Of a stretch of 64,000 nucleotides of DNA, positions 3,549 to 59,488 are shown piece by piece. The stretch's first letter is position 1. Each line of letters opens with the position of its first letter. The notes below the pieces were generated by a model. The model ran no database searches and had not been told where the DNA came from. It saw only the letters and a program-made list of their open reading frames with translations. Origin of the DNA: Eledone cirrhosa (taxonomy: Eukaryota); assembly GCA_964016885.1 (NCBI GenBank), contig OZ024752.1, positions 16,058,001 to 16,122,000 of the forward strand, in the 5' to 3' direction. Both the position numbers and the translations under genes were made by a program.

Positions 3549-3792
3549 ATATATATATAGTAATAATAATAAATTTGAAGACTAAAATCCAAAGAGGGCT
3601 CGATAAGGATAAATATATATCAAACATATAAGAACTGTAGAGCAAATATTTATTAAAATAACAGATTAAAGTTTAAGCAAAGAATCGCTGCTTTCACCCT
3701 TAACGGGACCTTCTGAAACTGTTTCAGAAGATCCTGTTAAGGGTGAAAGCAGCGATTCTTTGCTTAAACTTTAATCTGTTATTTTAATAAAT
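3549..3792. mobile_element. short HHR-bearing repeat (family A), inverted pair
   Basis: Palindrome centred at ~3720; same family at ~7684-7775, 16746-16960, 29747-29965, 34797-34865, 35704-35890, 57716-57803; always next to (TA)n. Confidence 0.75.
3721..3769 (+). ncRNA. hammerhead-like motif with U4A core variant (family A)
   Basis: GTTT-CAGAAGA-TCCT(GTTAA)GGGT-GAAA-GCAG(CGATTCT)TTGC-TT-AAAC. Confidence 0.6.
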
Positions 3793-3977
3793 ATATATAT
3801 ATATATATTACATAAATTGGTATAATTTCACCCAAATTGTAGGAATATTATAATGAAACGAGACGTCCGTCTGGGAAGAGATGTATTCGATATGTCTCAT
3901 ACAGCCAGTTTTCCACACAATACATTTAGTTAGCGCCCAAACGTTTAATTAGGAATATACTCACTTATTTCCTAATG

Positions 3978-4838
3978 TTTGTTCAACACTGACAAAGGAA
4001 CGCTGTACTATTTTCAAGCTTGTTAGCTATCGTCAGCAACGTATACCTTCCTGCCAGATAGTTGAACGTCCGAAAGTATATACTTTCCTTATGCATATTA
4101 ACGGCTGAGTAGCCCAATTTGCATATCGAGTGGGTTAATCGGGCGGGTGCACCGAAAACGTTAAACGGAAAAAATGAAACGAAATTTCATTTCCCACTCT
4201 TAGTACGGCTGTTACTTAAATATAAGTATGTATCCCGTATAAAGCCGCAGTGTCTAGCAACCATCGTTGCTCATTTGTTCAACACTGACAAAGGAACACC
4301 GAGCATTATAATAAATGTTTGATGAATCCATACGTACATATATATATGTGTGCATGTATGTATATATACATACTACTGTACGTCTGTATACATATATGTA
4401 TGTACGTATACATACTTATATTTAAGTAACAGCCGTACTAAGAGTGGGAAATGAAATTTCGTTTCATTTTTTCCGTTTATCGTTTTCGGTGCACCCGGCC
4501 GATTAACCCACTCGATATGCAAATTCGGCTACTCAACCGTTAATATGCATAAGGTAAGTATATACAATCTGGCAGGAAGGTATACGTTGCTGACGATAGC
4601 TAACAAGCTTGAAACTAGTACAGCGTTCCTTTGTCAGTGTTGAACAAACGAGCAACGGTGGTTGCTAGACACTGCGGCTTTATACGGGATGTTTGTTTAC
4701 AAACACACCGAGCATTATAATAAATGTTCGGTGAATCCATACGTACATATATATATATATGTGTGCATGTATGTATATATATATACATACTACTGTATGT
4801 CTGTATACATATATGTATGTACGTATACATACTTATAT
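3978..4838. mobile_element. retrozyme-like element family R1: inverted pair of partial-tandem ~410-nt monomers
   Basis: CACCGAGCATTATA recurs at ~4297 and ~4706; left arm 3978-4297 is the reverse complement with an internal deletion; HHRs at 4000-4042 (-) and 4584-4626 (+). Confidence 0.75.
4584..4626 (+). ncRNA. type I minimal hammerhead ribozyme
   Basis: ACGTTG-CTGACGA-T-AGCT(AACA)AGCT-T-GAAA-CTAG-TA-CAGCGT; canonical core, GUA triplet. Confidence 0.9.
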
Positions 4839-7184
4839 TTATATATATATATATATAAATGAAACATCGTACTTAATACAATTTGTTAAATATTATATAC
4901 AAAATTTGATCCCTTCTACAATCTAGACATGGTTAGTATTGGGTCTTAAAACCTTAGGTAGTGATTTTCCACCGTGTATGAACATAAACAATATATATAT
5001 ATATATATATGTGTGTGTGTGTGTGTGTGTGTAAACATACCTAGATGTTTGAAAGCACTAGACCCCACCAAATGGAATTTGGTCGCGTTTAACTAAGCAC
5101 ATATCATCAAATATTAAAATTGGTTCCTTTTCAAACTTCAGCCAACCTAACCACTGGTGAATTGGTAGCTGTGAGAGAGTGCCCCTTATAATTGTATCTG
5201 AAATCACATATTTGAGAAATGAACTTCTTAACTATTCAACTATGGAATTTCTAGACATTTGGATGATATATCATTTATTCAGCAAATGTGTCTGCTCTGA
5301 TTAAACCGTGTGATAACCAATATATTAAAACAATTTATGTTGCTGACATTACAGCTATACGAACTTTAAGTTAGTTCTATTGTCCAAAGTAGTATTTCAC
5401 TTATTAATATCGATTTCTTTGATTAATATTGATCTCTTTGATGTTAGCTATACATTGCCCTGATTGAGTAATGTAGTAAGATTGGTTCTTTTTATCGATA
5501 GTTAGGAAAAGTAAAGGAGCGTCTGTCCTTACATGTTTTTTTAAGTGATGTACATAAAAACTGTATACATTTATGTGGAACACTCTACTGATTCTGCTGC
5601 TTCATATCCTTTTAATTTATTTTAATACGTGTTATGAAATAGTGAAATATCAGAGACATTCGAAGTACTGTAGTACCTTTACATAATACTAGCTGATATA
5701 ACGTGACATTATAAGCTTTATTTACAATGTTTATGTGTGGGTGCCTGTGAAACATACATATACACCAGGTCCAAACACAAAGGAACCAAACCCCTACTGT
5801 CACCGCCTCAGTCCCTCCTGCTGTCCCTATCTTTCATTAATATGAGCAAATGGGGGCCCCACCCTAGCCGCCCTACGGCCGCGACGGACAGGAAACTTCT
5901 GGTCTCCCTGGGCCTAGGGCCAGCTCCATGCTCACCACCATCGTTTGCTACCCTATCGCCACCCCCTTCCTCACCACCGAGTTGGCTATCCGCAGATGTG
6001 AGCCTCACGAGCTTGAATGATTCTTCCAGGGCATCTCCCTCACCATCCTCCGTGGAAACGCCGTCTCTATTCACTTTACAGCATTATGTTCCAACTTACA
6101 TCAATTCACTTGAAAATCCCCGATTTTAACCAGCAAAAGTTGATACAGTAAACTTCAGTTTTTCAATGGGTTTGCATCTATCGTGCAAAACTATTTTAGC
6201 ATATCTTTTGTGAACTAGATATATCTAAAGTAATGCAGGATACGGAAACGTAATCCACGAGAATGTGCTTATCTTCATCAATATGTGCAACAATAGCGCA
6301 AAGAGTTTGAAATGCTTTCGAATTGTCTCCAAACGCCGCAAATTAAAGTAACCATTCCTACACATACATACATATATGTGGGAACCGTCTGCCATGGCGA
6401 TAACACTGAATTGGCAGGCTGGCCCCGAATTGAATCGGTCCTCTATTTTCTATCCTCTACAATATTTCATATCTTCTATTTTACTATGGTCTATGATCTG
6501 TTTATATTTAACGTAATCCTGTTGCCGAATTCCGCAAATACCACCTGATGAAATCGTCTAGTGTTACATCATGATCAGATGATAAGGCTGAGCCATCGTG
6601 TATAGTGTTGTCGCGGAATTAAAATTCTAAATTGAATTTTCCAGTCCGGCCTTCTGTTGTTTTAATGAATATTTATATATATATATGTAAATTTATATAT
6701 ATATATATGTGTGTGTGTGTGTATATTTATATATATATATGAATATATATATATATGTATATATGTATATATATATATATATATATATGTATATATATAT
6801 ATATATATATATATATATATATATATATATATATATATATATGTGTATATATATATATATGTGTATATATATATATATGTATATGTGTATATAAATATAT
6901 ATATATATATATATATATATATATATATATATATATATATATAAAATTTAGTACAGCATTAACGAAGCTTTAGTTTGCGCCGAAGCTAAGGAATGCGAAT
7001 TCGGTATGTAGCTTTAGCACTCGAATGGGAATAGTACCCCAGAGTAATAACAATACGTTTAGAGAGCTTAGCAAATCAAATATAGCTATATATATATATA
7101 TATATATATATATATATATATACATACACATATATATATACACAGTCTATGGAAAAGGCAACAGGAAGACGAGAATAATGTATA

Positions 7185-58011: not shown

Positions 58012-58727
58012 AGACCTGAGTACAGCCCATCCCTCTCCAGGCCTGACTGAGTACAGCCCATCCCTCTCCAGGCCTGAGTACAGCCCATCCCTCTCCAGGC
58101 GTGAGTACAGCCAATCCCTCTCCATCCTGAGTACAGCCCATCCCTCTCTAGGCCTGAGTACAGCCCATCCCTCTCCAGGCCTGAGTACAGCCCATCCCTC
58201 TCCAGGCCTGAGTACAGCCCATCCCTCTCCAGGCCTGAGTACAGCCCATCCCTCTCCAGGCCTGACTGAGTACAACCCATCCCTCACCAGGCCTGAGTAC
58301 AGCCCATCCCTCTCCAGGCCTGACTGAGTATAGCCCATCCCTCACCAGGCCTGAGTACAGCCCATCCCTCTCCAGGCCTGACTGAGTATAGCCCATCCCT
58401 CACCAGGCCTGAGTACAGCCCATCCCTCTCCAGGCCTGAGTACAGCCCATCCCTCTCCAGGCCTGACTGAGTACAGCCCATCCCTCACCAGGCCTGAGTA
58501 CAGCCCATCCCTCTCCAGGCCTGAGTACAGCCCATCCCTCTCCAGGCCTGACTGAGTACAGCCCATCCCTCACCAGGCCTGAGTACAGCCCATCCCTCTC
58601 CAGGCCTGAGTACAGCCCATCCCTCTCCAGGCCTGACTGAGTACAGCCCATCCCTCACCAGGCCTGAGTACAGCCCATCCCTCACCAGGCCTGAGTACAG
58701 CCCATCCCTCACCAGGCCTGAGTACAG
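58012..58727. repeat. GC-rich 27-bp minisatellite with 31-bp variant
   Basis: Unit GGCCTGAGTACAGCCCATCCCTCTCCA; variant with an extra CTGA. Confidence 0.95.
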
Positions 58728-59078
58728 CAGATTTCTTCCAGAGAAAGATAGAAAATGAGAGAGAGAGGAAATGAGAAAGAGATATAGAAGAAGAATCACC
58801 CACAGTAATAGACTGGTACTGTGTGTGTGTGTGTGTGTGTGTGTGTGTGTGTGTGTGTGTGTGTGTGTGTGTGTGTAAACGTTAAACAGAAATAGCAACC
58901 CAAACAGAATATGGAAGGAATATATTTGTTTGAAATAGCAGAAAGAGAATTTTAACGATTTATTTTATATATATATATATATATATATATATATATATAT
59001 ATATAGGTAAGTTATTCCGGGTTGAATCGGAGGTAACCACAGTAAGTAAGGTACTCAATACATAGCAGAGTATAAAAG

Positions 59079-59488
59079 TTTTAATATAGATGAGATTCTA
59101 CAGGACTAGAACTGTTTCATTCTTTAGAAATCATCAGGAATCTGGCTTTCCAAAAATAAATGTAGTGGTATTTACATTTTTTCAGGTGGTAGGAGAGGGT
59201 GGGGAGTAGGATGGGTGGAGGTCATCTCTTAAAAATAAGGAATGGCACCCCATTCGGACCCTATTTATAGAATCCTTTCTGCTTTTGTCACTCTAAATAT
59301 AAAGAATTAGCTTTTAATGAATTCCCTTTTCTGTCAACCAATGACCTCCACCCATCCCACTCCCCACCCTCTCCTACCACCTGAAAAGATATAAATACCA
59401 CTATATTTATTTTTGGAAAGTCAGATTCCTGATGATTTCTAAAGAATGAAACAGTTCTCGTCCTGTAGAATCTCATCTATATTAAAAC
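59079..59488. mobile_element. HHR-bearing element, inverted pair
   Basis: 59079-59225 is the reverse complement of 59340-59488; shorter relative at ~56305-56435. Confidence 0.8.
59423..59473 (+). ncRNA. complete three-stem type I hammerhead ribozyme
   Basis: AGATTC-CTGATGA-TTTC(TAAA)GAAT-GAAA-CAG(TTCTCGTC)CTG-TA-GAATCT; inverted copy 59093-59143. Confidence 0.9.

What the first reader, a model, noticed from the sequence alone, without database searches (positions are those of the whole stretch)
3549..59488. Consistent polarity: inverted pairs with both 3' ends pointing outward into (TA)n
Seen: in pairs at 3549-3792, 3978-4838, 16746-16960, 19067-19412, 24495-25026, 28812-29725, 29747-29965, 30398-30975, 38772-39730, 41878-42935, 46524-47066, 52047-52480, 55612-56048, ~56305-56435 and 59079-59488, the left arm is HHR-antisense and the right arm HHR-sense. 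Most outer ends abut TA repeats. Established: inverted 5'-truncated arms are a PLE hallmark and some PLE clades prefer microsatellites. Inference: both ends of a break in (TA)n prime reverse transcription independently and the two cDNAs are joined at their 5'-truncated ends. Arms differ by substitutions or deletions, consistent with two template molecules.
Basis: partly seen in the sequence, partly recalled or inferred. Interest (0 to 1): 0.75.

Follow-up and report, generated by a model that had tools for sequence, protein, structure and literature searches.

The report
Back-to-back Penelope retrotransposon insertions
Jumping genes of the Penelope type land in TA repeats as two back-to-back copies of their own end, a known layout; here one copy almost always stops at a short fixed site and the other at a longer one, which likely means both sides of one DNA cut copy one source RNA from two set starting points towards its capped start.

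Summary
The polarity is real. Head-to-head neighbours outnumber tail-to-tail 20:0 in the window and 68:4 in 1.0 Mb sampled elsewhere. Both ends touch (TA)n in 196 of 234 pairs. Two of the 15 listed "pairs" mix different families, and two opposite-polarity mirror duplications were missed.

The elements are Hydra- and Neptune-type Penelope-like retrotransposons. The head-to-head layout with a one-sided tail is published, and this scan has noted it before in this genome and others.

1. Each family has two fixed 3' ends, and 234 of 241 classifiable pairs use one of each (120 expected).
2. Arms often meet at a fixed initiator-like A preceded by an extra G (20 of 30 against 11 of 74), the mark expected from copying an RNA cap.
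3. Arms share subfamily and private alleles, and "two template molecules" was not shown.

Best model: coupled two-ended priming at two internal sites of one source RNA, then run-off and end-joining. The layout is known; the new part is the quantitative mechanistic evidence.

The parts
3005..3237 (.).
3560..3794 (.). F1 (Hydra-type) pair, long left / short right, both arms reach the fixed 5' boundary
3977..4841 (.). F2 (tandem hammerhead monomer, about 420 nt) pair; right end short and in TA, left end not at a family end
7194..8427 (.). Counter-example: mirror duplication of flank plus an F4 copy around a central TA run, F4 3' ends pointing inward; F1 mini-pair 7684-7786 sits in the centre
13986..15510 (+). 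5'-truncated parent copy of the F3 group: RT end, GIY-YIG endonuclease, 3' end with long tail in TA
   Evidence: (GIY-YIG E 3.7e-4, just under the Pfam cut-off)
16746..16958 (.). F1 pair, short left / long right
19011..19413 (.). F3c (Neptune-type endonuclease) pair, long left / short right
24415..24704 (+).
24842..25027 (.). F3b (Hydra-type) pair, long left / short right
28818..29738 (.). F2 pair with a partial tandem in the left arm, long left / short right
29747..29968 (.). F1 pair, short left / long right; right end followed by another repeat, not TA
30397..30985 (.). F4 (Hydra-type) pair, short left / long right, hammerhead in both arms
35702..35887 (.).
38766..39828 (.). F5 pair, short left / long right, hammerhead in both arms
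41878..42936 (.). F6 (tandem hammerhead monomer, about 510 nt) pair, long left / short right
46518..46823 (.). X pair, short left / tail-only long right, arms do not overlap
46870..47065 (.). F3b pair, short left / long right
52050..52489 (.). F7 (Hydra-type) pair, long left / short right, joined at the fixed 5' boundary
53592..53810 (.).
55065..55562 (.). Counter-example: 99% identical mirror duplication of an old F3a end plus host microsatellite around a central TA run, 3' ends pointing inward
55604..56047 (.). F7 pair, short left / long right
56307..56495 (.). F8 pair, short left / long right
57716..57804 (.).
59006..59489 (.). F8 pair, long left / short right, hammerhead in both arms

Best explanation
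These are insertions of Penelope-like retrotransposons in which two copies of the element's end sit head-to-head in (TA)n, one ending at a fixed short site and the other at a fixed long site; they likely form when both DNA ends of one endonuclease cut prime reverse transcription at those two sites of one source RNA, and the two cDNAs are likely joined after running to or towards the RNA's capped 5' end. Shown: the polarity, TA targeting, two fixed ends 33-187 nt apart by family, one-of-each pairing, a fixed 5' boundary with an extra G, arms from one subfamily or source, and junction microhomology. Also shown, in a full-length F1 tandem: both sites lie inside the 5' leader, about 75 and 160 nt after the boundary and before the AUG at about 205. 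Inferred: an RT dimer holding one RNA with one active site at each start point; transcription from the initiator-like A; copying of the cap; and read-through or strand displacement by the long-site enzyme. When the template is a read-through or tandem RNA, the same two starts would give long arms and full-length copies.
For: Pairing: 234 long+short, 4 long+long and 3 short+short among 241 classifiable pairs, from 301 pairs after collapsing 23 duplicates; 60 were unclassifiable; 120 expected if independent. It holds in all 12 family groups. Held-out set of 29 new F1 loci with a long arm: inverted partner short in 12, long in 0, other in 7, none in 10. 3 of 4 full-ORF F1 copies have an inverted long arm at the 5' side and end at the short site; the fourth is a direct tandem. 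Both arms lie at the fixed boundary in 73 of 147 pairs of five families. Extra G before the boundary A: 20 of 30 against 11 of 74 at other stops, Fisher p 5e-7. Held-out F1: 5 of 6 non-native bases are G, and none of the 15 long run-through copies has G there. An extra G at full-length L1 5' junctions is ascribed to mRNA capping (PMC11702581, one passage). Neither arm can generally be a copy of the other: the short arm reaches >=15 nt further 5' in 49 pairs, the long arm in 24, of 173, and 17 pairs have no overlap. Short-read contigs show the same pattern: all 15 listed F7 joints leave within 10 nt of the boundary, 13 of them within 5 nt, and land at scattered points. In vitro, the anole PLE protein nicks and extends both strands, starts at two internal RNA sites that bound the tail, and is predicted to be a dimer (PMC11167929, parts 1-2 of 4 read).
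Against: No RNA data, so the start site and cap are inferred. The boundary A was picked; 17 of the 20 G cases come from two families (F1, F3b), F7 and F4 add little, and 2 of the 5 held-out G could come from the partner arm. One RNA versus two sister RNAs is unresolved: arms still differ more at polymorphic sites (10.5%) than elsewhere (2.6%), and only 24 of 188 overlaps are identical. Long arms do not stop more often than short arms in the shared zone (18 of 119 against 32 of 146, p 0.21), so there is no sign of displacement trouble. Target-site duplications are not enriched (3 of 234, shuffled mean 0.9, maximum 3), so a staggered cut is not shown, and empty sites were not seen. PMC11167929 reports no difference in start site between strands in bulk. 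Many copies are single-orientation (129 of 213 clusters in the sample). Later central deletions or gene conversion could reshape arms.
Confidence: 0.65

Rival explanations
1. One reading: two independent RT complexes with two different RNA molecules prime at the two ends of a break, and the truncated cDNAs are joined.
For: Arms differ more at polymorphic sites than elsewhere (10.5% against 2.6%). A two-base F1 haplotype differs between arms at several loci. Junction microhomology. A dimer holding two sister RNAs from one source locus would fit the allele data.
Against: Independence predicts about 120 mixed pairs of 241, and 234 are seen. Arms are far more alike than random family copies and share private alleles in 34 of 173 pairs. 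The linked-difference test was negative (24 against 45).
Confidence: 0.17
2. Self-priming or fold-back (proposed in PMC3846280): one cDNA, or an antisense template, folds back and copies itself; the short end is where the copy jumps to the TA target.
For: Arms share subfamily and private alleles. 100 of 173 pairs have 5' ends within 15 nt of each other. Short sites lie in AT-rich context. Perfect palindromes occur at the F7 boundary.
Against: The short arm extends beyond the long arm in 49 of 173 pairs and 17 pairs have no overlap, while the tail cannot come from a short arm. The extra G points to a capped sense template. Both tail ends are RT start sites in vitro (PMC11167929).
Confidence: 0.12
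3. The short palindromes are MITE-like units that move whole, or are assembly artefacts.
For: Some junctions recur, for example at the F7 boundary and an identical F1 junction in L015 and L017.
Against: Junction positions and inserted bases vary widely. The ends are unequal, unlike terminal inverted repeats. The arms are ends of ORF-bearing retroelements. Strand-switch joints exist in short-read data of other samples.
Confidence: 0.06

Closest known systems
Insertion unit of endonuclease-bearing Penelope-like elements: inverted 5'-truncated pLTR plus one-sided tail (PMC8557442 Fig. 2 legend; PMC3846280; passages read)
   Same: Head-to-head inverted copy, called the most frequent arrangement in PMC3846280; tail at one end only; hammerhead in the pLTR; partial tandems.
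   Different: Tails here are 33-187 nt rather than 30-40. The one-of-each rule is quantified (234 of 241). Junctions cluster at an initiator-like A with an extra G, which argues for a capped sense template rather than antisense self-priming.
Hydra clade of C-terminal EN+ PLEs (PMC8557442 section 11, read whole)
   Same: The F1 ORF has RWR (RWK-like), DKT, a CxCx5C linker, no CCHH, and CxxC and CxH around E/N, and it inserts in (TA)n. F3b, F7, F4 and X carry related endonucleases on the sense strand.
   Different: The F1 hammerhead has a variant core (A at position 4). No tree was built. F3a/c/d are not Hydra-type yet follow the same rule.
Poseidon element PAc of the green anole in vitro (PMC11167929)
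   Same: Two internal RT start sites bounding the tail, both DNA strands nicked and extended, AT-rich target, ribozyme cut not needed.
   Different: There the sites are 30-40 nt apart inside the ORF start and coupling per molecule was not measured; in F1 they lie in the 5' leader.
L1 twin priming (Ostertag and Kazazian 2001, recalled; cited in 10.1101/2024.12.14.628481, passages read)
   Same: Both ends of one cut prime on one RNA and give an inverted junction.
   Different: The second site is fixed, not chance annealing; there is no poly(A); arms usually overlap (162 of 185); and it is the rule rather than a minority outcome.
Metazoan non-LTR retrozymes (10.64898/2026.07.22.740005, part 1 of 5 read)
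   Same: F2 and F6 are tandem hammerhead monomers without an ORF.
   Different: They show the same short/long head-to-head insertion as the autonomous families; circular RNA was not tested.

Membership tests
EN+ Penelope-like element | Single ORF with RT and C-terminal GIY-YIG endonuclease | tested here: met
   Four F1 copies with 709-713-aa open frames, YRDD and a C-terminal VY..YIG motif. Pfam and PDB gave no hit for this ORF; the F3 parent fragment hits GIY-YIG just under cut-off.
EN+ Penelope-like element | Partial tandem forming a pseudo-LTR | tested here: met
   L373: 735-nt upstream copy of the 3' region directly before the ORF.
EN+ Penelope-like element | Hammerhead motif in the pLTR | tested here: met
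   Sense-only folds for 8 of 14 references and F8 in the window. None found for F3c, F9, F10 or the F3a, F3b and F8 references by that scan; an F3b variant core was read by eye. Cleavage not tested.
EN+ Penelope-like element | Inverted 5'-truncated copy and tail at one end | tested here: met
EN+ Penelope-like element | Target-site duplication | tested here: inconclusive
   Hidden in (TA)n; 3 of 234 pairs show a non-TA repeat, two of 14 nt; shuffled mean 0.9, maximum 3.
Hydra clade (F1) | DKT instead of DKG; RWK motif | tested here: met
   DKT at residue 119, RWR at 41.
Hydra clade (F1) | CxCX5C linker, no CCHH, CxxC and CxH flanking E/N | tested here: met
   Residues 568, 588, 666 and 694. The linker is also seen for F3b and F7.
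Hydra clade (F1) | Insertion into (TA)n | tested here: met
Hydra clade (F1) | Placement in the RT phylogeny | not tested
   No reference PLE set on hand.
Neptune clade (F3 group) | CX2-5CxxC linker and CCHH-type GIY-YIG domain | tested here: met
   Motifs read by eye in F3c-linked ORF pieces; no tree and no full ORF, so Neptune against Nematis is open.
L1-type twin priming | Arms abut without overlap; first primer on poly(A) | tested here: not met
   Arms overlap in 162 of 185 pairs; no poly(A); both sites internal.
Non-LTR retrozyme (F2, F6) | Tandem hammerhead monomers without ORF | tested here: met
Non-LTR retrozyme (F2, F6) | Expressed circular RNA | not testable with these tools
   No RNA holder listed.

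The most novel reading that the evidence does not exclude
Penelope-like elements insert by obligatory two-site twin priming. One RT dimer on one capped mRNA gives one DNA end the short start and the other the long start; both copy to the cap, like paired strong-stop cDNAs, and the copied cap base helps join them. This one step would explain the one-sided tail, the inverted pLTR and the roughly 80 palindromes per megabase seen here, in two PLE clades and their non-coding retrozyme passengers.
Probability: 0.45. Interest if true: 0.7.

Novelty: new member of a known kind. Interest (0 to 1): 0.45.

Why it matters
How Penelope-like elements, the closest relatives of telomerase, build their tandem and inverted insertions is called undefined in the papers read (PMC8557442; PMC2377424 sees no obvious way to regenerate the pseudo-LTR). 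The polarity itself is known. Two genomic signatures narrow the mechanism. One is a 97% one-short-one-long rule. The other is a cap-like extra G at a fixed junction boundary, which favours a capped sense template over the published antisense self-priming idea. Both can be tested directly in the existing in vitro system (PMC11167929). At 81 pairs per Mb for 14 families (about 240,000 genome-wide if extrapolated), these hairpins could also be a large source of double-stranded RNA. PMC5625713 (passages) reports an exceptionally high share of such loci in octopus; that this genome is a cephalopod's is only my inference from its size and repeat load.

Tried and rejected
- Rfam: no hammerhead at gathering score among the 150 of 353 rows shown; one weak HH9 hit at 37-108; the rest are chance miRNA-like hairpins.
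- I first called F1 Neptune-type; this was rejected after checking motifs against PMC8557442 section 11.
- Pfam and PDB found nothing for the 713-aa ORF. The protein atlas did not complete.
- Clustering TA flanks without references was confounded by internal TA runs.
- A loose linked-difference count (53 of 173) included end artefacts. The strict version with a null was negative, though that null is generous.
- The first exact microhomology script resolved only 15 junctions and was redone.
- Ribozyme cut as the junction: no pile-up of F1 short-arm 5' ends at the predicted cut about 26-28 nt upstream of the short site, close to the 20-nt detection limit.
- Target-site duplications are not enriched. 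Tail regions fold better than shuffles in only 1 of 6 clearly, 2 weakly.
- A held-out cap test on F8 failed because the search returned nothing.
- No RNA holder was listed. Empty alleles could not be seen in the reads laid.
- Literature: eight searches listed no paper that, in the abstracts or passages I read, quantifies short/long coupling or a cap G in PLEs. The library lacks most subscription papers (Evgen'ev and Arkhipova 2005 and Arkhipova 2006 are recalled only), and I did not read the supplements of PMC11167929 or PMC8557442, which may bear on this.
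Full report
1. What was checked. The window lies in a 3.0-Gb AT-rich animal genome (G000:C12:16058001-16122000) and is dense in (TA)n. I sorted them into 14 families, using real copies as references cut by coordinates. I then annotated the window, 1.0 Mb of other stretches (16 x 50 kb at round coordinates, one of them a satellite, plus 200 kb beside the window) and 270 loci from nine family searches. 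The targeted loci are the best matches to window copies, so they are not a random draw.

2. Observation. Thirteen of the 15 listed pairs are single-family pairs with the stated polarity; two lump different families. Sense was fixed by hammerhead folds and, independently, by endonuclease ORFs upstream on the same strand for seven families. Head-to-head against tail-to-tail neighbours: 20:0 in the window and 68:4 in the sample at gaps up to 60 nt; 23:4 and 85:11 at gaps up to 1000 nt. Some tail-to-tail cases are neighbouring insertions sharing a TA run. Others, including 7194-8427 and 55065-55562 in the window, are mirror duplications that include host flank. Both ends touch TA in 196 of 234 short/long pairs, one end in 30 and neither in 8, against an 8.6% background. 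Short-read data from other samples contain strand-switch joints and TA-joined ends of these families, but no record spans a window palindrome.

3. What the elements are. F1 traces to full-length copies with a 709-713-aa ORF. Its motifs match the Hydra clade as defined in PMC8557442 section 11; Pfam and PDB did not recognise it. F3b, F7, F4 and X have related endonucleases. The F3 group has a Neptune-type linker and CCHH-type domain, read by eye. F2 and F6 are tandem hammerhead monomers without ORF. I had first called F1 Neptune; earlier notes of this scan pointed to Hydra and the motif check agreed.

4. Two fixed ends, one of each. In every family the 3' ends that meet TA fall in two peaks, a short site and a long site 33-187 nt further on. 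Of 324 head-to-head pairs, 301 remain after collapsing shared-flank duplicates; 60 have an end that is neither site. Of the other 241, 234 are short+long, 4 long+long and 3 short+short, against 120 mixed expected. A held-out set of 29 F1 loci chosen by their long arm gave short partners in 12, long in 0, other in 7 and none in 10. Three of four full-ORF F1 copies follow the rule. In the tandem copy both sites lie in the leader before the AUG, so they are internal start points, as found in vitro for the anole element (PMC11167929). A small hairpin is predicted just after both sites in F1, F5 and F6, as earlier notes proposed; I did not test its covariation.

5. Where the arms meet. The 5' ends cluster at a family-fixed point: about 73, 174, 58, 63 and 227 nt upstream of the short site in F1, F7, F3b, F8 and F4. 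Both arms end there in 73 of 147 pairs. The point is an A in a pyrimidine-flanked, initiator-like context (the initiator consensus is recalled). Arms that stop exactly there carry a non-native G in 20 of 30 cases not explained by the partner arm, against 11 of 74 at other stops. The position was chosen, and F1 and F3b supply 17 of the 20. In the held-out F1 set, 5 of 6 non-native bases are G (2 could be the partner's) and none of the 15 long run-through copies has G. An extra G at full-length L1 junctions is read as cap copying (PMC11702581). In D. virilis Penelope the promoter lies in the pLTR (PMC2377424, passages). I infer run-off at a capped sense 5' end. Junctions away from the boundary show microhomology (mean 2.55 against 0.74 nt, 49 junctions) or extra bases (45 of 94); at the boundary, 32 of 69 have extra bases.

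6. One template or two. Arms disagree at 182 of 1733 polymorphic non-CpG site-pairs, against about 591 for shuffled arms, and at 2.6% of other sites (188 pairs). 34 of 173 pairs share an allele seen at no other locus. A strict test for linked haplotype differences gave 24 against 45 under the null. So the arms come from one source or close sisters. Two unrelated templates are excluded; one RNA versus two sister RNAs is open, and gene conversion could add similarity. Fold-back is disfavoured because the short arm reaches further than the long arm in 49 of 173 pairs (the reverse in 24) and 17 pairs do not overlap at all, though later deletions cannot be excluded.

7. Mechanism. Shown: items 2-6. 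Inferred: the endonuclease cuts both strands in (TA)n; a dimeric RT on the leader gives one end the short start and the other the long start; both cDNAs run towards the cap; the ends join by blunt ligation, short microhomology or slippage. Read-through or tandem templates would yield long arms and whole copies. Against this: no target-site duplication signal, no excess stalling of the long arm in the shared zone, no RNA data, and 129 of 213 sampled clusters show one orientation only.

8. Comparison and novelty. The head-to-head layout, the one-sided tail and the TA bias are published (PMC3846280, PMC8557442). This scan reported the layout in other genomes and, with the two-start idea, in this genome. 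A word look-up for the cap signature returned no note. Eight paper searches showed no quantification of the coupling or of a cap G for PLEs in what I read; coverage is incomplete and supplements were not read. Verdict: a real feature of a known kind. The added value is the strict coupling and the capped-run-off signature, both directly testable.

Noticed in passing
window 7194-8427 and 55065-55562; also S091 (L091-L095) 23382-24370: Near-perfect mirror duplications of host flank and old elements centred on a TA run; they look like fold-back at self-complementary TA ends, and the two in the window contain or adjoin a separate PLE pair.
   Followed up: partly
window 10883-11545 (-): Fragment of a Hydra-type ORF with a roughly 110-aa Asn/Ser-rich insert between thumb and CxCx5C linker relative to F1, recalling the Asn-rich inserts of Adineta Penelope (PMC3846280, passage).
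   Followed up: partly
L192:851-968: Tail-only long/long F8 palindrome in a CA/TG repeat whose arms appear to carry many A>G and T>C changes, as if an edited hairpin RNA had been copied back (read by eye).
   Followed up: no
L015 and L017: Identical F1 junction with the same 6-nt insert on two chromosomes: a recurrent slippage product or a palindrome moved whole.
   Followed up: no
L208:821-1827, L209:1358-1771: Two F2 pairs outside pure TA have 14-nt direct repeats at their ends, possible target-site duplications.
   Followed up: partly
window 36296-37504 (+): Uninterrupted 402-aa frame for a rhodopsin-family GPCR (Pfam Srw E 1.9e-29).
   Followed up: partly
window 45440-46430: Tandem plus inverted copies of a further TA-flanked family not in my library.
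   Followed up: no
window 32111-33580: Minisatellite of about 39-nt units, open in two frames for 438-489 codons.
   Followed up: no
window 26410-26811 (-): LINE-type reverse transcriptase fragment (Pfam RVT_1 E 8e-7).
   Followed up: no
window 37-108 (-): Lone well-formed hammerhead, the only Rfam hammerhead hit among the rows shown, below gathering score.
   Followed up: no
F1 family, e.g. window 29812-29870: Hammerhead core with A at position 4 kept across copies; activity unknown.
   Followed up: no
L101-L105 (G000:C14:20000001-20050000): Stretch that begins as an array of roughly 84-nt units and gave no simple repeats or inverted repeats over 50 kb.
   Followed up: no
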